From a virus: a stretch of DNA of 32,805 nucleotides. The stretch covers positions 1 to 32,805 of the IMG/VR virus record IMGVR_UViG_3300015086_000001. One strand, 5' to 3'. Position numbers and translations under genes: made by a program. Shown here piece after piece: positions 475 through 12,021 of this stretch. The first letter of the stretch is position 1; each line of letters starts with the position of its first letter. The notes below the pieces were generated by a model that worked only from the letters and a program-made list of their open reading frames with translations, did not search any database and was not told the origin of the DNA.

Positions 475-2196
475 ATGGCTCAAATGTCCGCCGGTAACGG
501 CCCGGTCACCCCGAACCTCGCCGCTATCGTTGCCGCTGAGGCTGCGACCGCCCGCGCCGCTGAGGCCGTCGCGCAGGCCAAAGCGGACGCCGCCGCAGCC
601 AAGGCGTCGAACCTCTCCGACCTGGCCGACGCGGCCACGGCCCGGACGAACCTCGGCCTCGGCACCGCGGCGACCCACGCGACCGGCGACTACGACCCTG
701 CCGGGGCTGCCGCCGCTGAGGCTGTCACGGCACGGAACGCCAGCAACCTCTCCTCTGGCACCGTGCCCGACGCCAGGCTCCCCATCACCGCGCAGGCGGC
801 GACACTTAGTTCCACATATGGGACGGCTGGGGAGGTCCGTTCCAAGGTCAAGACGGACGGCACCGACCAGACAGCGATCCTGCAAGCCGAACTCGACACA
901 CTGACCGTATCCGGCGCGGGCGGCACGCTGATCCTGCCCACAGGGACGGTCACGATCAACGGCACGATCACTCTGACCAACGACGGGGCGACCCCACCCA
1001 AGCAGGCCACCCTCAAACTGCGGGGCGCGGGTGCGCACTGGTCCGGGCGCGGCACCGCCCCGGTCGGCGGGACCACCCTCGACATCAAGGGCATCGACAC
1101 CTACGGCAAACTCAAGACCAACGGGCTCGGCCTGCTGGCCATTAGCGGCGTCACGTTCAGGGACTCATCAGGTGGCGCCACCCCGTTCATCTACACCACG
1201 AACACCACACTGCACATTGATGAGTGCGCGTTCGTCGGCTCCAAAACTGGGGTTGCCTGCGACCAGGACGCGATCATCTGCGGTGGCACCGTCAACATCG
1301 AGGGCCAAGGCGACTTCACTCACGGATTCCAGGGCTACGGGACCGTCATCAGCCGTAACTACTTCAACGGCATCCGCCGCGCCGTGTACGGGCGGACCTA
1401 CTTCAACGCCAACGTCATCCGGGATAACACGATGTGGGCCGGCTGCGGGTTCGCCACCGGCGCAGCAATCGAAATCGACGGGACGCTCTCCACCGCCTGC
1501 GGCAACGTGATCGTCGGCAACCTCATCGAGACCCCCAACTACCAGTGGGGCATCCAACTCGCCAATGCCCAACAGAACACCCTCTCCGGTAATGGCATCT
1601 TCGACTGCGGCGCGGGCACCCTCGCAGGTGTCCGCGCAGAAGCGACGGCGCAGTACAACCGGGTCGAAGCCGGGTTCATCCAAGGCAGCAAGCCCTACCT
1701 TGCCGACGCTGCGGGCAACAACACCTTCGTCAGTCACGCCCAAGGTGTCAGATCCGTTTTCGGTCAGGGTCTGACCGTGACCAACGACATCAACCTCCTG
1801 GGCGGAACCGGTGGTGGGGTTCTGCTGAGCTCGTACAACGGCGTGCTGACAGTCGGCGGACAAATCAAGAACCTTGCAGCGGAAAACCTCTTCGGCCCTG
1901 TCACCAACTACCTCGACATCGGGTCACTTGGCACCGGGGACACGTGGGTAGACACCAGAGGCTCTAACGCAAACATCAACCTCAAACTCCGCGCACAAGG
2001 CACTGGTGCTGTCCAGCCGCAATCAGCCATGGCTATGGCCTCCGGGAAGTCCTTCAAAGCCGCGCCAACGACAACTGCCGCTCGACCATCAGCCGCAACC
2101 ATGGGTGTCGGTGCGGAGTTCTACGACACCACGCTGCTGATACCCATCTGGAGCGACGGCACCAACTGGAAGAACGCCGCTGGAACCGTCGTCTAG
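475..2196 (+). CDS. Tail fibre / tailspike with pectate-lyase-like right-handed beta-helix (putative depolymerase)
   Basis: ATG 475 is preceded by AGGAAAGG (461-468); 573 aa. The N-terminus is Ala-rich with an NLGLGTAA fibre motif. It is followed by DGTDQTAILQAELD..GGTLILPTGTVTINGTITL and repeated Gly/Asn-rich strands. Confidence 0.8.
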   Translation: MAQMSAGNGPVTPNLAAIVAAEAATARAAEAVAQAKADAAAAKASNLSDLADAATARTNLGLGTAATHATGDYDPAGAAAAEAVTARNASNLSSGTVPDARLPITAQAATLSSTYGTAGEVRSKVKTDGTDQTAILQAELDTLTVSGAGGTLILPTGTVTINGTITLTNDGATPPKQATLKLRGAGAHWSGRGTAPVGGTTLDIKGIDTYGKLKTNGLGLLAISGVTFRDSSGGATPFIYTTNTTLHIDECAFVGSKTGVACDQDAIICGGTVNIEGQGDFTHGFQGYGTVISRNYFNGIRRAVYGRTYFNANVIRDNTMWAGCGFATGAAIEIDGTLSTACGNVIVGNLIETPNYQWGIQLANAQQNTLSGNGIFDCGAGTLAGVRAEATAQYNRVEAGFIQGSKPYLADAAGNNTFVSHAQGVRSVFGQGLTVTNDINLLGGTGGGVLLSSYNGVLTVGGQIKNLAAENLFGPVTNYLDIGSLGTGDTWVDTRGSNANINLKLRAQGTGAVQPQSAMAMASGKSFKAAPTTTAARPSAATMGVGAEFYDTTLLIPIWSDGTNWKNAAGTVV

Positions 2197-2225
2197 CCAC
2201 CACATATGACCCGGATATCTGGTGG
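2197..2225 (+). terminator. Hairpin directly after the fibre gene stop
   Basis: ccaccacatat (2197-2207) pairs with atatctggtgg (2215-2225) with one mismatch and a 7-nt loop. Only a short TT follows. Confidence 0.4.
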
Positions 2226-2378
2226 TTCCCCCAGAGGTTTAGGCCGCCGAGCAAAACCCGCATAACTCTCCAAAAGCCGGCTCAGGGGCGGCCTAGTTTC
2301 TCCGGAGTTTGTGCGAACCCTGAACCCGGAAAGCCCATAAACCCGCACCATGGAACCCGAGCGAAGTGAGTCTGACCC

Positions 2379-2981
2379 ATGCCCAAGAATCGCCCGTCCG
2401 GGATCGCCACCGACTCCTCCGGCGGCCCAGTAGTCGACCCCACCAAGAACGTCATCGACCTCAACGAGGCGTCCGTCAAACGCCTCGACGACCTCCGGAC
2501 GATGGAGTCGTACTACGGCAAGCAGGTAGCCGACCTGCGCACCAAGCGCACTGACGACCTAGCAGAACTACGGGGCAAGCACTACCGCGAACTGCGCGTC
2601 TCCGAAGCAGGCCGCATCGACGCGATCCTCATCAGCATCGCCGAGACCGCGCAACTCACCTCAGCCGCCGCGGAAACCCGGGCCACCACCCTCGCCAACC
2701 AGGTCACCAACTCGGCGGACACCCTACGCAACCAGGTAGCCGACGCCGCGCAGGCGTCCAACGACACCCTGGACCGCAGGTTCGACCCGATCCAGAAGAG
2801 CATCGAGGAGATCCGCCGGTTCCAGTTCGAAACCCAAGGCGGGAAGACGTCGGTGAACGAGTCCCACGCCAACTGGGGCATGTGGATCGGCGTCGCGGTC
2901 GCGGCGTTCGTCGGGATGAACGGACTGTTCCTGACCGCTCTCGGGATCGTTGGGACATACATGCTGACCAGGCCCCGATGA
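2379..2981 (+). CDS. Coiled-coil protein with a single C-terminal transmembrane anchor (lysis-cassette-associated, function unknown)
   Basis: 200 aa with good GC3. Long heptad-like stretches (DLRTKRTDDLAELRGKHYRELR..). The C-terminal hydrophobic segment is WGMWIGVAVAAFVGMNGLFLTALGIVGTYML. Confidence 0.8.
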   Translation: MPKNRPSGIATDSSGGPVVDPTKNVIDLNEASVKRLDDLRTMESYYGKQVADLRTKRTDDLAELRGKHYRELRVSEAGRIDAILISIAETAQLTSAAAETRATTLANQVTNSADTLRNQVADAAQASNDTLDRRFDPIQKSIEEIRRFQFETQGGKTSVNESHANWGMWIGVAVAAFVGMNGLFLTALGIVGTYMLTRPR

Positions 2982-3085
2982 GCGACTTGGATTCCCTCGA
3001 AGCAAGGCGGCTGGTCTTCCTGGCCGGCCTGGCTATCGGTGCCGCGCTCGCGTTGGCCGCGCAGGCCCGGCTGCTGCACCACTGA
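2978..3085 (+). CDS. 35-aa single-pass membrane peptide
   Basis: ATG 2978 overlaps the upstream stop as ATGA. The peptide is MSDLDSLEARRLVFLAGLAIGAALALAAQARLLHH. It is below the ORF-track length cut-off from this start. Confidence 0.55.
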   Translation: MSDLDSLEARRLVFLAGLAIGAALALAAQARLLHH

Positions 3086-3125
3086 CGGTCACCGCCCGGT
3101 CCAGACAACCGCCGGACGGCGACTC

Positions 3126-3161
3126 GCGCCGCCCGCTGTTTCTTGCTCCGGCGGGCGGCGC
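3126..3161 (+). promoter_or_regulatory. GC-rich 11-bp-stem hairpin between the membrane peptide and the endolysin
   Basis: gcgccgcccgc (3126-3136) is the exact reverse complement of gcgggcggcgc (3151-3161), with a 14-nt loop and no U-tract. Confidence 0.35.
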
Positions 3162-3230
3162 CCACCATCCACGGCCCCCGATCTACAAGCGCCGTCGCCG
3201 TGCCCCAAGCATCGACAGGAAGGTACCACC

Positions 3231-4046
3231 ATGGCCATGGCCCCCCGCATCGTCCCCCGAGCAGCCTGGGGTGCCCGCCGACCCAAGACCACACCGGCCA
3301 CAGTCCCCATCGCCGCACGGACCGCGACCTGCGTCCACCACGACGGCAAAGTGCCCATCAACATCCGGACCGTCGCCGAGGCATACGTACTCGTCCGCCG
3401 CGACCAGAACTTCCACATGGACGGCAACGGCTGGAACGACATCGGCTACAACTTCCTCGTCATCAGCGCACCCGGCACACCCATCGACGGGATGATCCTC
3501 GAAGGCCGCGGCCGGGACGTCATCGGCGCCCACGTCCTGAACTGGAACACCCCGTGGATCGGCGTCCAGGTCGCCATCGGAGGAGCCCAACAACCCAGCC
3601 CAGCAGCCCTCGCATCTGTGCGCTGGCTGCACGACGGGTTCGTAGTCGCCGCCAAACACGTCCTCAGCATGAAGGGCCACCTCGACGGGTTCCCTACCAT
3701 CTGCCCCGGGCCGATCCTGCAGGCATGGGTGAGGGCAGGGATGCCAGTGACAGTTCCTCCGAGCTCGCCCGCCCCCAAGCCGCCGACCCCAACGAAGCAG
3801 CAGCCGACCCCAACAGGAGCCCTTCACGTGAACACCCTCGACTTCTCCCACGTCACCGCGGCCAGCACCACGTGGGTTCGGGGCACCGCAGTGGCGCCCC
3901 TGCAGCGGCTCCTGCAGGTCAATTCTGACGGGCTCGGAGGTCCGGGAACCCGGGCCACGCTGTACGCCTACCAGTCGTCCCACGGGCTCAAACCCGACGC
4001 CGTCTTCGGGCCGGCCACAGCCACAACCCTGCTCGCAGGAAGGTGA
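3231..4046 (+). CDS. Endolysin: N-acetylmuramoyl-L-alanine amidase (PGRP/Amidase_2-like) plus C-terminal peptidoglycan-binding domain
   Basis: ATG 3231 follows AGGAAGG (3217-3223). Motifs: CVHHDG, NFHMDGNGWNDIGYNFLV, GAHVLNWN, TICPGP. A Pro-rich linker is followed by a PG_binding_1-like repeat (DGLGGPGTRATLYAYQSSHGLKPDAVFGPATATTL). Confidence 0.9.
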   Translation: MAMAPRIVPRAAWGARRPKTTPATVPIAARTATCVHHDGKVPINIRTVAEAYVLVRRDQNFHMDGNGWNDIGYNFLVISAPGTPIDGMILEGRGRDVIGAHVLNWNTPWIGVQVAIGGAQQPSPAALASVRWLHDGFVVAAKHVLSMKGHLDGFPTICPGPILQAWVRAGMPVTVPPSSPAPKPPTPTKQQPTPTGALHVNTLDFSHVTAASTTWVRGTAVAPLQRLLQVNSDGLGGPGTRATLYAYQSSHGLKPDAVFGPATATTLLAGR

Positions 4047-4050
4047 ACCA

Positions 4051-4377
4051 GTGAGCCCGAACCAAGCCGCCCGCCGCGTCGACGGCGAGCCCGTCATCAT
4101 GGTCCTATCCGTCCTCGCAAGCTTCCAGTTGCTCTTCGCCGGCGCCGGCCTGTCCGACGTCATCGGCGCCAAGCCAGTGTTCCTCGGCATGCTGCTCGTC
4201 GCCTCCATCCAGGGCGGCATCCAATTTTGGGTGAGGGGACAAACCGTCGCCGCGGTCAACGTCGTCGCCTACGTCGCACCCAACAGCGCCGTCGTCGCCG
4301 GCAGCGCCCTGATGGGTGTCCCCGAAGGGGAACCCGTCGCCGTCGTCGCCACCCCGCCCCCTGTTCTGCCCTCCTGA
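4051..4377 (+). CDS. Holin (two predicted TM helices)
   Basis: GTG 4051 lies 7 nt after AGGAAGG. Hydrophobic segments are VIMVLSVLASFQLLFAGAGL and VFLGMLLVASIQGGIQFWV, followed by RGQTV, as in actinophage holins. The gene is immediately downstream of the endolysin. Confidence 0.7.
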   Translation: MSPNQAARRVDGEPVIMVLSVLASFQLLFAGAGLSDVIGAKPVFLGMLLVASIQGGIQFWVRGQTVAAVNVVAYVAPNSAVVAGSALMGVPEGEPVAVVATPPPVLPS

Positions 4378-4411
4378 CCTTCACGGTCCCCTTCCTAGGA
4401 GGGCAGCGAAC

Positions 4412-4446
4412 CGCCCCCACCTGGTGCCCAGGTGGGGGCGTTCTCG
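4412..4446 (+). terminator. Intrinsic terminator of the late/lysis operon
   Basis: cgcccccacctgg (4412-4424) pairs perfectly with ccaggtgggggcg (4428-4440) and is followed by TTCTCGTT. Confidence 0.7.
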
Positions 4447-4618
4447 TTGAAATCGCAGCTGATTCCCTGCGAACGCTCGTTGGCAGAGAACGCAGGAAAG
4501 AGACGGTCGACAGGTCGATTACCAGCGGGTAGGGTCCACCAGACCAAAGGCGGCCCCGCTCAGTGCGTCCAACACTGAACGAGGCCTTGCCGCCACCAGA
4601 TGTGACCTGGAGACGACC

Positions 4619-5524
4619 ATGCAAGAGACTAACCACACCCCTGCCCCAATAGGTCCCGCAGAGCAGGCCGTAATCGGCTTCCTCGCCCGATACTCGTGCG
4701 CCGGCACCGTCGACGCCTACACGATCGATCTGCGCATCCTCTTCCAGTGGTGCGCCGCTAACGGCGTCGAGCCCTTGCAGGCATCACGCACACACCTCGA
4801 GCTCTTTGCCCGCCACCTCGAGCACGACCGCGGCAACTGCCCGGTCTCGGTCCACCGGCGCCTGAGCACGATCAAGTGCTTCTACAACATCGCCTCCATC
4901 GACGGCTACGTCGGTCAGTCCCCAGCCATCCACCTACGCCTCCCTCGCGTCTTCAAGGACGAGACCAAGACCCTCGGCCTGGACCGTCTCGAGCTCGGCG
5001 CGGTCGTCTCCGCCGCCCGAGCCTCCAGCGCCTGCGACTCGGCGCTGATCACCATGCTCGGACTGCTTGGGCTGCGGGTCTCCGAAGCCTGCAACGTCCG
5101 GATCCAGGACATCCACGGCCTCGAGCGCGGCCACCGCACACTGACTCTGGTCGGCAAAGGCCGCAAGCCCGCCACGATGCCGCTCGCCGTACCTGTCGCC
5201 CGGGTCCTGGACGCCGCGGCCGGTGACCGGATCGAGGGCCCGCTCCTGCTGCGCGCCAACGGCCGGCCCATGAACCGCGACTCGGCTGCCCGGGTCGTGG
5301 TCCGCCTGGCCAAGCAGGTCGGCATCAAGAAGAAGCTTTCACCGCACTCGTTGCGGCACTCGTACATCACTGCGTGCCTGGACGCCGGGGTCCCGCTGCG
5401 CGACGTGCAGATCGCCGCCCGCCACTCCGACCCCCGTATGACGACCCGGTACGACCGCGCCCGCGGCAACCTCGACAGGCACGCCAACTACGTCGTCGCC
5501 GCCTTCATCGCCGGCGCCGCATAG
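4619..5524 (+). CDS. Tyrosine recombinase 1 (XerC/D-like integrase)
   Basis: GGAGA lies 5 nt upstream of the ATG; 301 aa. There is a SAM-like N-domain. Catalytic pattern: GLRVSE (R), GKGRK (K), HSLRH (HxxR), ARHSD (H), TTRY (Y). Confidence 0.92.
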   Translation: MQETNHTPAPIGPAEQAVIGFLARYSCAGTVDAYTIDLRILFQWCAANGVEPLQASRTHLELFARHLEHDRGNCPVSVHRRLSTIKCFYNIASIDGYVGQSPAIHLRLPRVFKDETKTLGLDRLELGAVVSAARASSACDSALITMLGLLGLRVSEACNVRIQDIHGLERGHRTLTLVGKGRKPATMPLAVPVARVLDAAAGDRIEGPLLLRANGRPMNRDSAARVVVRLAKQVGIKKKLSPHSLRHSYITACLDAGVPLRDVQIAARHSDPRMTTRYDRARGNLDRHANYVVAAFIAGAA

Positions 5525-5539
5525 CCCCCCCTCCAGCTG

Positions 5540-5573
5540 CCTGCTGATAGGTCGGACAGGCCGACCCAGCAGG
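5540..5573 (+). promoter_or_regulatory. Composite hairpin 16 nt after the int1 stop (terminator or recombination-site element)
   Basis: cctgctg/cagcagg (5540-5546 / 5567-5573) encloses ggtcgg/ccgacc (5550-5555 / 5561-5566). Confidence 0.4.
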
Positions 5574-5691
5574 ACACTGAACGCCACTCCTGAACCCAGT
5601 CAGGTGGGGGCGTTTTCATGCCCACAGAGGCGACCGATAACGAAGATTCAAGCTAAGCCGTAGCCTGCTACTCAGTCCTCTCCGGACAACG

Positions 5692-5727
5692 CGCCCCACC
5701 TGGTCCCCAACAGGTGGGGCGTTTTTA
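5692..5727 (+). terminator. Intrinsic terminator
   Basis: cgccccacctg (5692-5702) pairs with caggtggggcg (5711-5721), with an 8-nt loop, followed by TTTTTA. Confidence 0.8.
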
Positions 5728-5786
5728 TGCTCAAACCACTGACCCTGATTAACGATTCATCGAACTGAACAGCGAGGCGCGCCCCA

Positions 5787-6428
5787 ATGACCTATCCCGC
5801 GACCCAGACGTACTGGCTTCAGTCGACTAACCGATCCCGGTTCGGGCTGCGTCGCTACTCCTCCCGAGAAGGTCGCACCGGATGGACCTGCGAGAGCGGA
5901 TGGCACGAGGCAAAGGGACCTCTCGTGTGGGAGGGCACAGCGGTGCAGACCGAGCATGACTCTGGCCACCGCACATTGGCCGCCCTGCCGGATACCTCGC
6001 ATGACAGCCCGCTCTGGCCGCGATTCTGCCAAGCGGGCTGCGGCTACGAGTTCGTCGAGAGCGACAACTGGCAGGACACCCAGGACCAGCTCTACCAGCG
6101 CACCGACACCGGCCAGCGATTCACCCTGCGCGACGCTCCGCCCGGTGCCTGCTGGGACGCCTGGTGGATGCCCGACAACTGGCGCGGCGCCGACGGCATC
6201 GCGCTCATGGTCCGCTGCCCCAACGGCGACGACTGGCATGTCGACAGCGAGGCCAGCAACTGCACCCGCAAGGGCGAGACCCACCAGTGCTGGGTCCGCC
6301 ACGGCGACCCACGCCAGGCCAACGTCACCGTCGACAAGAACGGCGACACCTGCGCAGCTGGTGCAGGCTCCATCCTCGCCGGGGACTACCACGGCTTCCT
6401 CATCGGTGGCCTGCTCACTGCCGGCTGA
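5787..6428 (+). CDS. Trp/Cys-rich 213-aa hypothetical protein (moron between two recombinase genes)
   Basis: GAGG lies 9 nt upstream. GC3 is strongly G/C in this frame, unlike the overlapping ORFs 5757..6482(-) and 5956..6921(+). The C-terminus is ..CPNGDDWHVD..HQCWVRHGDP..NVTVDKNGDTCAAGAGSILAGDYHGFLIGGLL. Confidence 0.75.
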   Translation: MTYPATQTYWLQSTNRSRFGLRRYSSREGRTGWTCESGWHEAKGPLVWEGTAVQTEHDSGHRTLAALPDTSHDSPLWPRFCQAGCGYEFVESDNWQDTQDQLYQRTDTGQRFTLRDAPPGACWDAWWMPDNWRGADGIALMVRCPNGDDWHVDSEASNCTRKGETHQCWVRHGDPRQANVTVDKNGDTCAAGAGSILAGDYHGFLIGGLLTAG

Positions 6429-8130: not shown

Positions 8131-8403
8131 TCTCTTCGCCCTCCGTGCCTTGAGCAACGCATCAGCGGCGGCCTGCGCAGACCCGAACGGCCTGCCGCCG
8201 TGGACCATCCGCACCTTCCCGCGGACGATCATGTCCGCGCCCCACCCGTTGTCGTACTCCACGACGTACCCCACGGTCGTGCCTACTCGGGAGACGAGCA
8301 CTGCCCCCCACTTCGTCTTACGGAGGACCTTGCGCGACTCAACCACCCAGGTCCGGCCGAAGCCGGGGTCTGCGAGAACTGGCGCGACACTCTTGGCGGT
8401 CAT
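8128..8403 (-). CDS. 91-aa basic hypothetical protein translationally coupled to recombinase 3
   Basis: ATG 8403 shares its A with the int3 stop (TGATG). The protein is MTAKSVAPVLADPGFGRTWVV...ALLKARRAKR. The longer 8128..9030 ORF is the same frame read through int3 antisense-free space. Confidence 0.6.
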   Translation of the reverse strand: MTAKSVAPVLADPGFGRTWVVESRKVLRKTKWGAVLVSRVGTTVGYVVEYDNGWGADMIVRGKVRMVHGGRPFGSAQAAADALLKARRAKR

Positions 8404-9251
8404 CACGCGGCCAGCAGATCGATCGCGGCGCGGCACTCGGCGTCGTCGACAGCCAGGTAGACCTCGGTCGACGCCAGGAACTCGTGCCTCATCAAGTTCT
8501 GAACCACCCTGATATTCGCGCCCTCGCGCAGGAGCCGCGTCGCGAAGGTATGCCGGCCGCGGTGGATCCCGCCCTCGATCCCGTTGGCTGCCAGCAGTGT
8601 GCAGGTCCGCGCTGACACATGGCGCGCGGACACGTGCCCGGCTTCTGAGGAGCTCGGGAACCACCACCCGTGGCGCGGCATGGTCGACGCCAGCGCCCAG
8701 ACCGCGGCGTGGGTCGGCACGTAGGCGCTGCGTCCGCCCTTGCCGCAGACGAACATCCGGTCTTCCTGGACGTCCTGCCCTCTGATTTTTGCGATCTCGA
8801 AGGCCCTCAAGCCGGAGAACAAAGCCAAGATCAGCCAGGCGTGCTGTCTCGCGCTGGTCGCCGACGCCAGGATCAGGTCGACCTGCTCCGAGGTCAGCGG
8901 GCGAGGGGAGCCCTTGGGCACGTGCGGGCGGTGCATCTTGGTCATCGGGTCGACCGCAACGAGCTCGGCCTCCTCTGCCGCCCAGCCGAAGTAGCTGCGC
9001 AGGTGCCCGTAGAACGTCGCGCGCGACCAAGGCGCGTACCCCGGCCGCCCGAGCCAGGCCGTGATCTCGGCCCGTGTGACGTTGGGGAAGTTGGGGTGGT
9101 GGCGCTCGAAGTCGGCCAGGTGCGCGAGGCGGTAGTGGACGGTGCTGATGGCGCAGCCGTTGGCGCGAAGCCAGTCTGCGAACCCGCTCATGTCTGTCAT
9201 GGGCGCATCGTCTACCAGCACCAGGTGGCGCGCGGGGGATTCGTGTGTCAT
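8403..9251 (-). CDS. Tyrosine recombinase 3 (integrase in the repressor operon)
   Basis: 282 aa. Catalytic pattern: GLRAFE, CGKGGR, HRGRHTF, MRHEF, TEVY. The gene starts 13 nt downstream of the repressor gene. The start could also be the internal MTDMSGF. Confidence 0.9.
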   Translation of the reverse strand: MTHESPARHLVLVDDAPMTDMSGFADWLRANGCAISTVHYRLAHLADFERHHPNFPNVTRAEITAWLGRPGYAPWSRATFYGHLRSYFGWAAEEAELVAVDPMTKMHRPHVPKGSPRPLTSEQVDLILASATSARQHAWLILALFSGLRAFEIAKIRGQDVQEDRMFVCGKGGRSAYVPTHAAVWALASTMPRHGWWFPSSSEAGHVSARHVSARTCTLLAANGIEGGIHRGRHTFATRLLREGANIRVVQNLMRHEFLASTEVYLAVDDAECRAAIDLLAA

Positions 9252-9264
9252 CCGACAGATCCGG

Positions 9265-9585
9265 TTACGCCGCGGTCTGGCGGACGAGACTGAGCCGAGA
9301 ATCGGACCGGACCACCCGCAGGCGTCGGGTTAACTCAACGGTAAACGGGCCGCCCCACATGAGCCAGTCACGGTCGTAACCGGTGCTGGCAGCGATGGCT
9401 GCGATATGCCGGGTCACACCGCGGGTACCTCGGCCCAGTTCCATGCCCTGCCACACGCCGAGTGGCACTCCGGTTGCTATAGCGGCTTCCCTTTGAGACC
9501 AACCCTCTTCATGTCGCAGGGCTATCAGCCGCATGGGTAGGGAGTCGGTGGGAATCCTAGGGCGTGGGTCCGTCTCGGGTGCCAT
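9265..9585 (-). CDS. XRE/cI-type HTH repressor
   Basis: From ATG 9585: MAPETDPRPRIPTDSLPMRLIALRHEEGWSQREAAIATGVPLGVWQGMELG.., a classic HTH_3 pattern. It faces the rightward early genes. Confidence 0.8.
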   Translation of the reverse strand: MAPETDPRPRIPTDSLPMRLIALRHEEGWSQREAAIATGVPLGVWQGMELGRGTRGVTRHIAAIAASTGYDRDWLMWGGPFTVELTRRLRVVRSDSRLSLVRQTAA

Positions 9586-9704
9586 GGCAGGATCGTGGCG
9601 CGTCCAATGGCATCTTGTCAAGCACTTTGACGCTCCGGGCGTGGTTTAGTGCCAGACACGCACGTCATCGCTATTGACGCGCGAATGTGCCAATGGCATG
9701 TTGG
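9586..9704. promoter_or_regulatory. Divergent switch region with repeated operator-like motif CCAATGGCATNTTG
   Basis: Copies lie at 9604-9617 and 9690-9703. The second is embedded in the 11-bp palindrome TGCCAATGGCA (9688-9698). There is also GTCAAgcactTTGAC at 9617-9631. Confidence 0.55.
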
Positions 9705-9988
9705 CCGTTATGCAGAAATCGACGATGCAACTGCTCATAGAGCATCGGTACGGCCCCACGCTCCAGTCCGACATAGAGGCGATGATCGAAGATGGCCTGG
9801 GCTGGCGCGCGATGGCCAAGGTGGTCTCCAAGCACGCCGACTATCCGCTCAGCTACGAAGCGCTGCGCCAGTGGTACGGCCCCCAGGCTGAGCAGGCAGC
9901 CAAAGCCATGAGGGACGCCAAGGCCAAAGCGAACACCACATTGCCCCTGGACGACGACGTCCCCGACAGCGTTGCCACTGCGGTATGA
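9698..9988 (+). CDS. First rightward early protein (Cro-position; possible DNA-binding)
   Basis: The ORF is open from TTG 9674, with ATGs at 9698, 9710 and 9725 and no clear SD (possibly leaderless). It contains ..DGLGWRAMAKVVSKHADYPLSYEALRQWY.. Confidence 0.5.
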   Translation: MLAVMQKSTMQLLIEHRYGPTLQSDIEAMIEDGLGWRAMAKVVSKHADYPLSYEALRQWYGPQAEQAAKAMRDAKAKANTTLPLDDDVPDSVATAV

Positions 9989-10161
9989 GCACCGCGACGG
10001 CGATGACCGTGATCGTGCCGTCATGCGCTGAGTGCGCCTCAGACATGCACCACAAATGCTTCGGCAAGACCTGGGTCGACGATCTCTACCGGCTCATGCC
10101 TTGCCCCTGCGCCAAAGCCGGCCACCAGCGCCAGCTGAGCGCGCCCCAAGAGCCGAACTAA
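9985..10161 (+). CDS. 58-aa Cys-rich protein
   Basis: ATGA overlap with the upstream gene. The protein is MSTATAMTVIVPSCAECASDMHHKCFGKTWVDDLYRLMPCPCAKAGH.. It is below the ORF-track cut-off and is followed by a hairpin. Confidence 0.5.
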   Translation: MSTATAMTVIVPSCAECASDMHHKCFGKTWVDDLYRLMPCPCAKAGHQRQLSAPQEPN

Positions 10162-10165
10162 TTGC

Positions 10166-10200
10166 GGGGCACCAGGTGGCTGGAGTTCATCTGGTGCCCC
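10166..10200 (+). terminator. Hairpin after the first early transcription unit
   Basis: ggggcaccag (10166-10175) pairs with ctggtgcccc (10191-10200), with a 15-nt loop and no clear U-tract. Confidence 0.4.
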
Positions 10201-10534
10201 TGAATGTGACAGGCGAAAGAAAGGTTTTCCGGGGGGCCAGGGAAAAGCCCCGAGCTAAGGCTCTGAGGGCTTAGACAACCCCCGGATTACCTGCTCTCCT
10301 CCGGGGGGGGGTGTGCGGATACGCACGTCTGGCACGGCCCGACGAGTGCACGGCCGCAGGGCGAAGGCCCGCAGCTAAACCGCCACGGGCCTTCTCACCA
10401 ATTACTAGGGCTTTGCGGCCCTGTAATACCCACAGTACCGGGCTGAACCGGGTTTACGTCACCTTAGCGGGGACAGACGTATACCTTATTGCGGGTATTT
10501 TTCGGGGTCGCGAGGCCGGAAAGACATGGGCACC
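10201..10534 (+). other. Structured non-coding region (candidate ncRNA and/or replication origin)
   Basis: There is no convincing ORF and GC is lower than elsewhere. Elements: a G9 run at 10303-10311, mutually exclusive pairings around CCCCCGGA (10279-10286), a 10-bp-stem hairpin at 10401-10427, direct repeats of GCACGGCC, and a T-tract hairpin at 10481-10502. Confidence 0.55.
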
Positions 10535-10753
10535 ATGTCACCCCAAACCTCTTGCCCAACTGGAACGTACAACTCACCTCTGACAAGCCACGACCGCGTT
10601 GCAGACGCTGTCGAGACACTCCGCATATTGTCGGATCAGCGAGTCGCCGGTCAAGAGAAAACCCTTGATCTGCACGGTGTTATCGCCCACATCCACGGCC
10701 TCGGCTACCACCTGGTCCTGGCTCGTGATCTTCCCCGCGGCAGCCGGCCGTGA
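10535..10753 (+). CDS. Possible 72-aa protein coupled to the downstream 423-aa gene
   Basis: Its stop overlaps GTG 10750 (GTGA). GGAAAG lies 11 nt upstream of ATG 10535. GC3 is clearly lower than in neighbouring genes, so coding status is uncertain. Confidence 0.35.
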   Translation: MSPQTSCPTGTYNSPLTSHDRVADAVETLRILSDQRVAGQEKTLDLHGVIAHIHGLGYHLVLARDLPRGSRP

Positions 10754-12021
10754 GCGTCGCGCAGCTGGTCGACCAGGCCCCGCCGGTCGACGTCCTGCCG
10801 GCCAGGACGGGCTTCAAGGGCGCCAAGGTGCCATGGGTGCACGTGCACGACGACGGCATACGCCCGGGGCTGTCCACGAAGGTGCCTGATGGTGCCTACC
10901 GGGGCACTGTGCGCTGGTCGAAGCCTGAGGCCTTCCTGAAGGGGCTGCGTGTAGCCCTGGAGGCCCATCCGGAGCTGCGACGAACGAACCTAGACCGGCG
11001 GACCGGCAAGTACAAGGACGTCCAGGGGCTCGAGCGGTTCATGCGCATCGCCGAGGCCGTGACCCTCGCGGCCGACCATCGCACCGGCCGCGACGTGCGC
11101 GCCCGCAGGAAGGAGATCGCCGAGGCTGCCGGCTGCTCGGTCCAGGACGTTCAGCGGTGGAACCGCATCGCCTCCCGAGTCCTACAGATCCTGGTCCCGA
11201 TCGCCGACGGCCGACAGCTGACCCTCCTCGAACGCCTGGACGTCTGGGCACGCCAGACAAGCCCCCGACTAAAGCAGCACGGCGTCTCCACGGTCTGGGC
11301 GTTCCACGTTCCGCCCTGGCTGCGCCAGATCATGGCCGCTGCAGCGATCCAGGCCCCACGGATGGACGCCCGGGGCCGCTGGCACACCACCTCTGACCTG
11401 CAGCTGAAGGAGTCCGCACCCCATCCACGTAGTGGTCACGCTTTTGAGACAGATCACCTTGCGTACAACTCCCCTTCGCACCCGACAAGCGGCTCGCTTC
11501 GCTCACCAAGCGGCCCGGGCTCCGCCCGGACAGCCCTGATGAAGAAGGGGCGACCCCCGCCGGGCCGGCAGCTCGCGATCAGATTCGTCAAAGCCATGCC
11601 ACTGCTACGTTCAACGTCCCCCAAGCGGCTTGAGAACCGCCTAAAACGGTTCGTCGAGTCCCGACCCGTCTGGACAGCACAGGACCTTCTCGACGCGATT
11701 CAGACCAGCTGCGAACGAAGCGGCCGGAGCGCAACCCCACCCGCCGACCAGATCCACACGCCATGGGCGTTCGTCGGGTCACTCCTGGACAGCATCCACG
11801 AGCACGACGACCACCCACGCCTGCCGTTCGTCGACCCCGCCGAGCTCCGCTGCGGCCGACCTGAGTGCGACTACGGCTGGATCACCCTCGACGACGTCGC
11901 CGGCCGGCCTCTGGTCCGCCGCTGCGACAGGTGCCGCCCCGGCGCATGGCCCGAGCACGAGTCGAGCGCTGATGACCTCCTCGACGGGGCACCGGCCGAC
12001 GACTCAGAGCCGCCGTTCTGA
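10750..12021 (+). CDS. 423-aa DNA-binding protein with central HTH and C-terminal Cys4 zinc ribbon (putative replication initiator)
   Basis: HTH-like RRKEIAEAAGCSVQDVQRWNRIA. The C-terminus is CGRPECDYGWITLDDVAGRPLVRRCDRCRPG. It is the only candidate replication protein in the genome. The function is inferred. Confidence 0.6.
   Translation: MSVAQLVDQAPPVDVLPARTGFKGAKVPWVHVHDDGIRPGLSTKVPDGAYRGTVRWSKPEAFLKGLRVALEAHPELRRTNLDRRTGKYKDVQGLERFMRIAEAVTLAADHRTGRDVRARRKEIAEAAGCSVQDVQRWNRIASRVLQILVPIADGRQLTLLERLDVWARQTSPRLKQHGVSTVWAFHVPPWLRQIMAAAAIQAPRMDARGRWHTTSDLQLKESAPHPRSGHAFETDHLAYNSPSHPTSGSLRSPSGPGSARTALMKKGRPPPGRQLAIRFVKAMPLLRSTSPKRLENRLKRFVESRPVWTAQDLLDAIQTSCERSGRSATPPADQIHTPWAFVGSLLDSIHEHDDHPRLPFVDPAELRCGRPECDYGWITLDDVAGRPLVRRCDRCRPGAWPEHESSADDLLDGAPADDSEPPF

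What the first reader, a model, noticed from the sequence alone, without database searches (positions are those of the whole stretch)
10201..10534. Roughly 330-bp structured non-coding region with a G9 tract and mutually exclusive helices
In a genome where genes otherwise overlap, this stretch has no credible ORF. The track ORF 10311-10583 has poor composition. GC is visibly lower here than elsewhere. The region contains:
- TCCGGGGGG at 10228-10236 and again at 10300-10308. The second copy runs into a 9-G homopolymer (10303-10311).
- CCCCCGGA between them (10279-10286). It can pair with either flank, giving alternative, mutually exclusive helices as in riboswitch or attenuator logic.
- Nested helices such as CTAAG/CTTAG and AAGCCC/GGGCTT within 10244-10275.
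- GCACGGCC direct repeats (10332-10339 and 10348-10355) and CCGCAG repeats.
- A 10-bp-stem hairpin at 10401-10427.
- A small hairpin followed by T5 (10481-10502), which could end an RNA of about 300 nt that starts after the 10166-10200 hairpin.

The region lies immediately upstream of the putative initiator gene. It could be an origin with iteron-like repeats, a regulatory leader, or a phage ncRNA. The G9 run is also a potential slipped-strand switch and a likely site of assembly error.
Basis: partly seen in the sequence, partly recalled or inferred. Interest (0 to 1): 0.62.

Follow-up and report, generated by a model that had tools for sequence, protein, structure and literature searches.

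The report
Conserved structured leader RNA in actinophages
The 330-base gap is a genuinely non-coding, heavily folded element. It recurs, with base-pair-preserving mutations, in 12 other uncultured actinobacterial phage contigs, just ahead of their early replication-type operon, and is most likely a new regulatory leader RNA.

Summary
The stretch folds far better than shuffles: z -7.4 for the whole region, -5.4 for the 3' core and -3.0 for the 5' part.

No Rfam family matches. The ~200-nt core (10345-10549) has 12 homologues in metagenomic phage contigs. It always lies after the cro-like early genes. In 11 of the 13 members, window included, it lies directly before a 70-136-aa ORF coupled to a larger gene. 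In two it lies directly before the Rep-like gene.

Frame-breaking indels exclude a protein. On the 13-member alignment, 92.5% of pair cells are paired and 20 of 46 pairs change on both sides. Conserved G.U pairs favour the + (mRNA) strand.

The anatomy is:
- a G/C-run 5' domain, shared by five relatives;
- hairpin P1;
- a ~125-nt irregular hairpin with an invariant U4-6 tract on its 3' side;
- a competing helix, P0;
- a hairpin that buries the small ORF's start codon.

My best reading is a cis-acting attenuator or translation gate for the small-ORF/Rep-like operon (about 0.55). An origin is disfavoured because the motif and the Rep-like gene occur without each other. The iteron-like repeats, the 10-bp hairpin extension and the T5 mini-hairpin are window-specific. 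No expression data could be obtained.

The parts
10166..10200 (+). 14-bp GC-rich hairpin 5 nt after the stop of the 58-aa early gene. It resembles a terminator without a U tail.
   Evidence: Equivalent strong hairpins follow the upstream gene in L013, L002, L105, L107, L108 and L014.
10205..10344 (+). 5' domain. It holds the purine box GAAAGAAAGG (10216-10225), G-run 1 (10231-10236), the inner hairpin AAGCCCC..GGGCTT (10245-10272), the C-run (10279-10285), G-run 2 / G9 (10303-10311) and the hairpin GTGCGGATACGCAC (10314-10327).
   Evidence: Fold z -3.0. Conserved in L013, L002, L105 and L107 with 48 invariant columns. RNAalifold pairs the C-run with G-run 2, and G-run 1 with GGGUCCUU. There is little covariation.
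10345..10549 (+). Conserved core of the element, defined as the covariance-model match.
   Evidence: Model R1 scores 177.7 bits, E 3e-49. Twelve homologues score 36-194 bits. Fold z -5.4.
10353..10362 (+). Segment A, the 5' strand of helix P0 (GCCGCAGGGC). It pairs with 10410-10419.
   Evidence: 94.6% of cells are paired and 5 of 9 pairs change on both sides. L104 compensates C->U with G->A. A G.U pair is conserved in 9 of 13 members.
10363..10394 (+). Hairpin P1 (GAAGGCCCG ... CGGGCCTTC) with a variable loop.
   Evidence: 95.8% of cells are paired. Two pairs alternate between A-U/G-C and G-C/A-U in 5-6 of 13 members. L007 has a 19-bp version.
10407..10423 (+). Segment B (AGGGCTTTGCGGCCCTG), the shared strand. 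It can pair with A (P0), with itself (P2, AGGGC/GCCCT) or with C (the B:C helix).
   Evidence: Duplex energies are A:B -5 to -20, B:C -13 to -29.5 and P2 -3 to -11.5 kcal/mol. The MAFFT-only consensus selects B:C, with a G.U pair in 12 of 13 members.
10419..10507 (+). Domain II, a long irregular hairpin. It comprises long-range helix P5 (CCCTGTAATACCCACA : TTGCGGGTATTTTTCGGGG), inner helices P3 and P4, and the apical loop CACCTTAGCGGGG. A window-specific inserted hairpin lies at 10438-10451.
   Evidence: The window's ATACCC/GGGTAT replaces ATGCC/GGCAT of the relatives, and L007 has AGGAC/GTCC. Hairpin energy is -15 to -28 kcal/mol in all 13 members.
10483..10492 (+). ACCTTATTGC, a nearly invariant unpaired stretch on the 3' side of domain II.
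   Evidence: ACCUUA is present in 9 of 13 members.
10498..10502 (+). U tract (T5) immediately 3' of the GC-rich base of domain II.
   Evidence: There are 4-6 U in the first 8 nt after the stem in 13 of 13 members, even where the opposing A-rich strand has changed.
10503..10517 (+). Segment C (CGGGGTCGCGAGGCC). It contains the GGGTCGC box (11 of 13 members; GAGTCGC in L101, GGGTTGC in L007) and pairs with segment B.
10518..10539 (+). Translation initiation region: Shine-Dalgarno GGAAAG (10518-10523) and hairpin P6 (GACATGG/CCATGTC) with the start codon ATG 10535 in its 3' arm.
   Evidence: The hairpin's second pair reads G-C where codon 2 is CCN and A-U where it is TCN (window, L004), as read from the sequences. 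The second ATG is the conserved start.
10535..10753 (+). Small ORF of 72 aa (75 aa if read from 10526). Its last 4 nt (GTGA) overlap the start of the next gene.
   Evidence: Homologues P0013-P0023. Every one whose DNA was fetched has the motif directly upstream.
10750..12021 (+). 423-aa protein with a winged-helix/HTH region and a C-terminal Cys4 ribbon. It is a putative replication initiator or regulator.
   Evidence: It has relatives. It has no Pfam, PHROG, NCBIfam or PDB sequence hit. Fold matches to winged-helix and RepA_N initiators are not significant (E about 0.5). A distant relative lies next to a ParA-like gene.

Best explanation
Window 10201-10534 (functionally about 10166-10549) is transcribed on the + strand as the leader of the early operon that begins with the 72-aa ORF and the overlapping 423-aa Rep-like gene. 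It is a conserved multi-domain RNA with five parts:
1. A 5' domain of G-run/C-run hairpins.
2. Hairpin P1.
3. A ~125-nt irregular hairpin (B:C + P5 + P3 + P4). Its GC-rich lower stem is followed by an invariant U4-6 tract, and its apex and 3' bulge carry invariant unpaired sequences (CACCUUAGCGGGG and ACCUUAUUGC).
4. An upstream strand (A) that can capture strand B (helix P0) in competition with B:C.
5. A hairpin (P6) that buries the small ORF's AUG just after the Shine-Dalgarno sequence.

Inferred mechanism: in the default fold, domain II plus the U tract stops or pauses transcription coming from the cro-side early promoter, and P6 keeps the small ORF closed. A trans factor would recognise the invariant loops or shift the A:B / B:C balance. 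Candidates are a phage early protein, host elongation factors or an antisense RNA. That shift would let RNA polymerase and ribosomes into the small ORF. Translation of the small ORF would then be passed on to the Rep-like gene through the GTGA overlap.

Shown here: conservation, non-coding status, secondary structure with covariation, fixed genomic position, and the alternative helices.

Inferred only: that the region is transcribed, that the U tract terminates transcription, and what flips the switch.
For: - Non-coding: no ORF, frame-breaking indels in the alignments and tblastn hits that change frame.
- Family: there are 13 members. All four newly found small-ORF homologues had the motif. 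The motif is single-copy per genome.
- Structure: 92.5% of cells are paired, and 20 of 46 pairs change on both sides, against 5.8 +/- 1.7 in shuffles and 2-7 in slid controls. An independent MAFFT + RNAalifold run recovers P1, B:C, P5, P3 and P4.
- Strand: there are 45 G.U cells against 21 A.C cells. G.U pairs are conserved in P0 (9/13), P4 (10/13) and B:C (12/13). All neighbouring genes are on the + strand.
- Terminator-like feature: the domain II hairpin (-15 to -28 kcal/mol) is followed by 4-6 U in 13 of 13 members. L008 has a plain hairpin + U5 at the same place.
- Switch-like feature: segment B has three partners, and L104 compensates in P0.
- Start-codon hairpin: it covaries with codon 2.
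- Position: the motif always follows the repressor/cro-like module and precedes the small ORF or the Rep-like gene.
Against: - There are no transcript data of any kind.
- MFE and RNAalifold energies do not separate the two strands. Some pairs, such as the A.C cells in P5b and P1, would pair better on the minus strand.
- Domain II is much longer (46-69 nt) than a textbook terminator hairpin, and the simple scanner does not call it.
- The competing helices P0 and B:C flank the terminator-like stem rather than disrupt it, so no clean antiterminator was identified.
- The 13 members fall into only about 4-6 independent lineages. The main alignment (A6) was fitted to the model, which inflates the pair counts.
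- No promoter could be placed.
Confidence: 0.55

Rival explanations
1. The element is an RNA-RNA control system. It would encode or contain a discrete small RNA, or be the target of a countertranscript. Known parallels are P1 c4-icd-ant, P4 CI, R1 CopA/CopT-tap-repA and pT181/pIP501 attenuation. That RNA would set the level of the small ORF and of the coupled Rep-like gene.
For: - Both strands fold well, as expected for sense/antisense pairs.
- A 72-76-aa ORF overlaps the next gene, as in icd-ant and tap-repA.
- A terminator-like U tract lies just before the ribosome-binding site.
- A sigma70-like site on the minus strand lies at the same position (+119/120 from the start codon) in the window, L101, L104 and L105.
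- A discrete RNA running from after the 10166-10200 hairpin to the U tract would be about 300 nt.
Against: - There is no C4 or other Rfam hit, even at E <= 10.
- The minus-strand promoter-like site is absent in 7 of 11 members.
- The other candidate (GCGACC-17-TAAGGT) loses the essential -10 A in L108, L101 and L007.
- The CCUU loops match the Shine-Dalgarno sequence over only 4 nt, and not at all in the window.
- Conserved pairing of segment C, which lies downstream of the U tract, implies that read-through transcripts matter.
Confidence: 0.15
2. The element is the replication origin used by the 423-aa protein. It would act either as DNA (binding sites plus an easily melted T-rich segment, or single-strand initiation hairpins) or as an RNA primer or R-loop, as in the RNA-based origins of cluster A mycobacteriophage prophages.
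For: - It lies immediately upstream of the only replication candidate.
- It holds the local GC minimum, 0.56.
- The repeat ACCTTA(N0-2)GCGGG occurs twice, about 22 bp apart.
- RNA-based prophage origins exist in actinophages (PMC7157519).
- Distant relatives of the 423-aa protein lie beside ParA-like genes.
- There are weak winged-helix/RepA_N-like fold hits.
Against: - Motif and Rep-like gene are separable. G003 has the motif and small ORF but no Rep-like gene. L008/L009, L010, L011, L030 and L031 have the gene but no motif.
- There is no iteron array, only 2-copy repeats of 8-11 nt.
- The sequence is about 75% conserved between phages whose Rep-like proteins are about 28% identical.
- Long-range compensatory pairing and conserved G.U pairs point to single-stranded RNA.
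- No HUH motif is conserved, so a rolling-circle single-strand origin is unlikely.
Confidence: 0.12
3. The region is an ordinary double-stranded-DNA control region. It would be a stack of terminators that insulates the immediate-early transcript, followed by a promoter with a short 5' UTR for the small ORF. One candidate is a -10-like CATTTT/TATTTT with a start near GGGTCGC. There would be no integrated RNA switch.
For: - An N-A-N-N-N-T hexamer (CATTTT and similar) is present in 12 of 13 members. It lies about 35-45 nt before the start codon, which would give a normal-length UTR.
- Strong hairpins are common terminators in high-GC phages. The P1-type pattern alone matched 61 viral contigs, and only two of them, L013 and L040, were true full-length family members.
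Against: - No acceptable -35 hexamer, and no site passing the promoter scan on the + strand, in any member.
- Compensatory changes occur in the long-range helices P5 and P0, and segment C pairs with segment B across about 85 nt. Neither is explained by a promoter or by independent terminators.
Confidence: 0.1

Closest known systems
Transcription attenuators / regulated intrinsic terminators in mRNA leaders (for example the pT181 and pIP501 rep leaders, or riboswitch expression platforms)
   Same: It is a long structured leader directly before a replication-type operon. A GC-rich stem is followed by a conserved U tract about 30-45 nt before the start codon. One shared strand has mutually exclusive helices.
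   Different: The hairpin before the U tract is 46-69 nt and irregular. The U tract lies inside a longer helix (B:C + P5). No antiterminator that disrupts the stem and no countertranscript has been demonstrated. No ligand-type gene association exists.
Lambda nutR-tR1 and HK022 putR regions
   Same: The genomic place is the same: between the cro-like immediate-early gene(s) and the delayed-early replication genes of a temperate phage. The RNA is conserved more strongly than the downstream proteins, as expected if it contacts host machinery.
   Different: There is no single-stranded boxA (CGCUCUUA / UGCUCUUUA; PMC2724277) and no boxB-type 15-nt hairpin. The GCCCUGAAA string is only a 9-mer coincidence. 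The architecture is not the two-hairpin put fold. No N-like protein was identified. The host phylum is different.
P1/P7 immI (c4 RNA-icd-ant) and R1 CopA/CopT-tap-repA
   Same: A structured RNA lies in the leader, followed by a short ORF (72-76 aa here, 73 codons for icd from my own knowledge) that overlaps and probably couples to the larger downstream gene.
   Different: There is no match to the Rfam C4 family. Loop-to-RBS complementarity is not found. The antisense promoter is not conserved across the family.
RNA-based origins of extrachromosomal cluster A mycobacteriophage prophages (Wetzel et al. 2020, PMC7157519)
   Same: It is a non-coding, possibly transcribed element of a few hundred nt in an actinophage, linked to replication functions.
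   Different: Those phages lack a Rep protein and carry parABS. No sequence similarity to cultured phages was found.

Membership tests
Any Rfam 15 family | Covariance-model score at or above the family's gathering threshold | tested here: not met
   There were no matches in the window or in 10 related loci. At E <= 10 only chance-level partial hits appeared (best 19.5 bits against a threshold of 86).
Intrinsic terminator / attenuator | GC-rich stem immediately followed by a U-rich tract | tested here: met
   The base helix (A/G)CCnUGCA:UGCnGG(C/U) is followed by 4-6 U in the next 8 nt in 13 of 13 members.
Intrinsic terminator / attenuator | Compact hairpin (short loop, usually under about 50-60 nt in total) | tested here: not met
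   The hairpin is 46-69 nt with internal loops. It is not reported by the terminator scan.
Intrinsic terminator / attenuator | Alternative (antiterminator) pairing that excludes the terminator stem | tested here: inconclusive
   Segment B has three partners: A, itself and C. These helices flank the P5 base rather than replace it.
Intrinsic terminator / attenuator | Transcripts that end at the U tract | not testable with these tools
Lambda-type nut site / rrn antiterminator | Single-stranded boxA (CGCUCUUA or UGCUCUUUA) and a boxB hairpin | tested here: not met
   The closest string, GGCUCUCA, occurs in L002 and lies inside the P1 stem (L014 and L105 have GGCUCUCC). Others have GCCUUCUC. No GCCCU-GAAAA-AGGGC hairpin is present. 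Consensus sequences were taken from PMC2724277.
P1 c4-icd-ant type immunity RNA | C4 RNA fold, with loops complementary to the ribosome-binding site of the small ORF | tested here: not met
   There is no RF01695 hit. The CCUU loops can pair with only 4 nt of GAAAGG, and the window's GGAAAGA lacks AAGG.
P1 c4-icd-ant / R1 tap-repA type | Short ORF that overlaps and is coupled to the downstream gene | tested here: met
   The 72-aa ORF at 10535-10753 overlaps the 423-aa ORF (start 10750) by GTGA. The same layout occurs in L002, L004, L005, L107 and L108, and in L101. Coupling itself is inferred.
Antisense-RNA-controlled rep leader | Conserved countertranscript promoter on the opposite strand | tested here: inconclusive
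   A promoter-like site lies at +119/120 in 4 of 11 members. The second candidate is not preserved in L108, L101 or L007.
Iteron-type replication origin | Array of at least 3 direct repeats of about 17-22 bp | tested here: not met
   There are only four 2-copy families of 8-11 nt. GCACGGCC x2 is absent from relatives.
Iteron-type replication origin | Co-occurrence with its cognate initiator gene | tested here: not met
   G003 has the motif without the Rep-like gene. Six Rep-like loci from five distinct sequences lack the motif.
Rolling-circle single-strand or double-strand origin | HUH-type Rep with conserved His-U-His and catalytic Tyr motifs | tested here: not met
   The invariant columns of the 12-protein alignment contain no HUH. 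The window's HVH (residues 31-33) is not conserved.
Riboswitch | Conserved ligand pocket, plus association with genes for metabolism or transport of one compound | tested here: not met
   Downstream genes are a small ORF of unknown function and an HTH/Rep-like protein. The invariant unpaired nucleotides are compatible with any binding partner.

The most novel reading that the evidence does not exclude
The element is a new class of large (about 200-330 nt) multi-domain phage RNA. It would gate the immediate-early to replication transition in temperate actinophages by acting directly on the host transcription elongation complex or ribosome. In that sense it would be a put- or nut-like processive antitermination or attenuation device for Actinobacteria, where no such phage system is known to me. 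Its invariant loops (CACCUUAGCGGGG and ACCUUAUUGC) would be the recognition surface.
Probability: 0.2. Interest if true: 0.75.

Novelty: new variant of a known kind. Interest (0 to 1): 0.5.

Why it matters
Regulation of early gene expression in actinobacteriophages is poorly understood beyond repressors and stoperators. As far as I know, no RNA-based timing device comparable to lambda nut or HK022 put has been described for them.

This element would be a new RNA family with a testable structure. It has 13 members and is absent from Rfam, from 50,697 cultured phage records and from PLSDB plasmids. It sits at the exact place where temperate phages decide whether to enter replication.

If it works as proposed, it would also be a compact, portable control cassette for gene expression in high-GC Gram-positive hosts. 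If it is only a stack of terminators, the finding is of modest, annotational value.

Tried and rejected
**Searches that found nothing**
- Rfam found nothing at gathering or permissive thresholds.
- blastn of the region against cultured phages and PLSDB plasmids gave no match.
- tblastn of the 423-aa protein against phages gave no match.
- Scans of metagenome contigs and genome contigs with conserved patterns gave only chance hits or nothing.
- The TACCTTANTGC..GGGTCGC scan of viral contigs gave mostly chance hits.
- The P1-hairpin pattern gave 61 loci. Only two of them, L013 and L040, were true full-length members. L077, L066 and L089 matched only domain-I-like hairpins.

**Readings considered and rejected**
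- Hidden protein or frameshift at G9: rejected because no frame is conserved.
- Strand assignment from folding energy: uninformative.
- Minus-strand promoter GCGACC-17-TAAGGT: rejected because the -10 A is lost in three members.
- + strand promoters around the T run: no acceptable -35.
- boxA/boxB similarity: rejected.
- Anti-SD-like CCUU loops pairing with the Shine-Dalgarno sequence: too short, and absent in the window.
- T-loop similarity in the P3 loop: present only in L101.

**Protein analyses**
- The structure prediction of the 423-aa protein had mean pLDDT 65.8 and only non-significant winged-helix hits.
- The structure prediction of the small ORF was low-confidence, showing two helices, and was not searched further.

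**Not possible**

Full report
**Context.** The window is a complete 32,805-bp IMG/VR virus record with direct terminal repeats. Around the finding it has the layout of a temperate high-GC actinophage:
- a tyrosine integrase (8403-9251, minus strand);
- a cI-like HTH repressor (9265-9621, minus strand);
- rightward early genes of 104 aa and 58 aa (9674-10161);
- the gap under study;
- a small ORF, then an overlapping 423-aa ORF (10750-12021).

**Observation.**
- No credible ORF covers 10162-10534.
- The 90-aa ORF at 10311-10583 matches relatives only through nucleotide conservation, in pieces that change frame.
- The + strand of 10162-10530 folds to -189.7 kcal/mol. That is z -7.44 against dinucleotide shuffles.
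- The 5' part alone gives z -3.0 and the 3' core z -5.4.
- The minus strand also folds well, z -4.95.
- The GC dip is modest.
- Rfam has nothing, at gathering thresholds or at E <= 10.

**Relatives.** The 423-aa protein has about a dozen metagenomic relatives.
- Their contigs showed 71-78% nucleotide identity to window 10353-10667 upstream of the gene, with 1-, 2- and 11-nt indels that break every frame.
- Pattern scans of IMG/VR added L013 and L014. These come from 41-43-kb phages whose large downstream protein is only about 28% identical to the window's.
- A covariance model built from seven sequences found a divergent copy in L007. After a further pattern scan it found one in L040/G003, a complete 41-kb phage.
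- A profile search with the small ORF gave four new proteins. All four contigs carry the motif directly upstream.
- The family now has 13 distinct members, one copy per genome.
- Nothing similar exists in 50,697 cultured phage records or in PLSDB plasmids.
- An exact-pattern scan of 185,579 species genomes found nothing.
- Rep-like relatives in MAGs point to Actinomycetales / Nostocoides-type hosts.

**Structure.** On the 13-member model-guided alignment:
- 92.5% of the 583 pair cells are standard pairs.
- 20 of 46 pairs show changes on both sides. Column shuffles give 5.8 +/- 1.7, and structures slid by 1-3 columns give 2-7.
- A MAFFT-only alignment with RNAalifold independently recovers P1, the B:C helix, P5, P3 and P4.

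The helices are:
- **P1** (10363-10394). Two pairs swap between A-U/G-C and G-C/A-U in about half of the members, and L007 has a 19-bp version.
- **P0** (10353-10362 with 10410-10419). L104's GCGG->GUGA change is matched by CCGC->AUCGC.
- **Long-range helix P5** (CCCUGAAAUGCC... with ...GGCAUUUUUCGGG). It is compensated in the window (AUACCC/GGGUAU) and in L007 (AGGAC/GUCC). It is retained in L006, where the interior is replaced by a different hairpin.
- **Inner helices P3 and P4**, with the near-invariant loop CACCUUAGCGGGG.
- **B:C helix**, 13-16 bp, joining AGGGCUGUGCGGCCCUG to CGGGGUCGCGnGGCC across the whole of domain II. Its energy is -13 to -29.5 kcal/mol.

Segment B can alternatively pair with A (P0, -5 to -20 kcal/mol) or fold on itself (P2).

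Downstream of the Shine-Dalgarno sequence, hairpin P6 holds the start codon in its 3' arm. Its second pair is G-C where codon 2 is CCN, and A-U in the two members where it is UCN. In L002, L005 and L014 the first ATG is out of frame, so the real start in the window is 10535.

**5' domain.** The region 10205-10344, including both G runs and the C run, is conserved in L013, L002, L105 and L107 and partly in L108, L005 and L004.
- RNAalifold pairs the C run with G-run 2.
- The window's own MFE pairs G-run 1 with the C run.
- Both are possible and there is too little variation to decide.
- G-run 2 varies from 5 to 9 G among relatives.
- The GCACGGCC repeat, the outer half of the 10401-10427 hairpin and the local ATACC/GGTAT hairpin are window-specific.

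**Strand.** Folding energies do not discriminate between the strands. Within the consensus helices there are 45 G.U cells against 21 A.C cells. The G.U pairs of P0, P4 and B:C are conserved in 9-12 of 13 members. This favours the + strand, the strand of all neighbouring genes, with the caveat that the structure was derived on that strand.

**Function.** The element always sits after the repressor/cro-like module. It sits immediately before the first gene of the next operon. That gene is the small ORF in 11 of the 13 members, window included, and the Rep-like gene itself in L006 and L007.
- It is separable from the Rep-like gene. G003 keeps the motif and small ORF but has an unrelated 262-aa HTH protein.
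- L008/L009, L010, L011, L030 and L031 have Rep-like genes without the motif.
- Together with the lack of iterons, this argues against a cognate origin.
- In all 13 members the GC-rich base of domain II is followed by 4-6 U. L008 has a plain hairpin + U5 at the equivalent place.

I therefore read the core as an attenuator-like leader. The default state would be a terminator or pause fold with a sequestered start codon. It would be opened by a factor that recognises the invariant loops or shifts the A:B / B:C equilibrium. The GTGA overlap would pass translation from the small ORF to the Rep-like gene.

The place is that of lambda nutR-tR1 or HK022 putR, but the defining boxA/boxB features are absent. 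The layout also recalls c4-icd-ant and CopA-tap-repA, but neither C4 membership nor a conserved countertranscript promoter could be shown. A promoter-like site at a conserved position occurs in only 4 of 11 members.

**The 423-aa protein.** It has no family or PDB sequence match. Its AlphaFold model has mean pLDDT 65.8. It gives only non-significant matches (E about 0.5) to winged-helix regulators and RepA_N plasmid initiators. A distant relative lies beside a ParA-like gene. 'Rep-like' is thus plausible but unproven.

**Verdict.** The element is a new, small family of structured phage RNA of a known general kind. Its interest is moderate, and would be higher if it proves to be an RNA-based antitermination or timing device for actinophages.

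Noticed in passing
window 10654..10627 (minus strand); same relative position in L101, L104, L105: A sigma70-like site (TTGACC-16-GACAAT) lies inside the small ORF and points back towards the leader. Similar sites (TTGACG / TTGATC, 17-nt spacer) lie at the same offset (+119/120 from the start codon) in 3 of 10 relatives. It could drive an antisense RNA across the ribosome-binding site.
   Followed up: partly
L101 (G003) 1285-6338: A complete 41-kb DTR phage has the same order: integrase, repressor, cro-like gene, motif, small ORF. Its next gene, however, is an unrelated 262-aa HTH protein (3720-4508). A C5 cytosine methylase-like gene lies at 5433-6338.
   Followed up: partly
L011 4423-7116: A distant Rep-like relative (about 33-34% identity), with its own unrelated upstream 75-aa ORF, sits between a NikA-like gene and a ParA-like (CbiA/VirC1) gene. 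This plasmid-like context lacks the RNA motif.
   Followed up: no
L008 1140-1190: At the place of the motif this relative has only a simple hairpin (GGCCAUUUUGCUAUGGGC) followed by U5 and CGGGGUGGC. It lies about 40 nt before the Rep-like start and looks like a minimal version of the 3' end of the element.
   Followed up: partly
L007 9898-10107: A related phage contig carries a 69-aa gene with a Pfam Acb2_Tad1_hairpin hit (anti-CBASS/Thoeris sponge family).
   Followed up: no
window 10158-10177 versus 10485-10495 and 10528-10538: CTAATTGCGGG and GGGCACCAGGT at the foot of the 10166-10200 hairpin recur as CTTATTGCGGG (unpaired box of domain II) and GGGCACCATGT (start-codon hairpin). TAATTGCGGGG also precedes the equivalent hairpin in L013. 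This may be chance.
   Followed up: no
window 10208-10225; L107, L108, L002 5' domains: A box (G)TGAC(A/G) followed 2-6 nt later by GAAAGG opens the 5' domain in four members. It looks like a Shine-Dalgarno sequence, but no start codon follows it in the window, L107 or L108.
   Followed up: no
window 10535-10753 and homologues: The small ORF family (70-136 aa) shares an N-terminal M-P-P..T-Y-x-P-Y-L-T-D motif and a C-terminal ..AI(A/T)EI(R/H)GLG(L/Y)HLV.AREL motif. It has no Pfam, PHROG or NCBIfam hit. Its structure model is low-confidence and shows two helices.
   Followed up: partly
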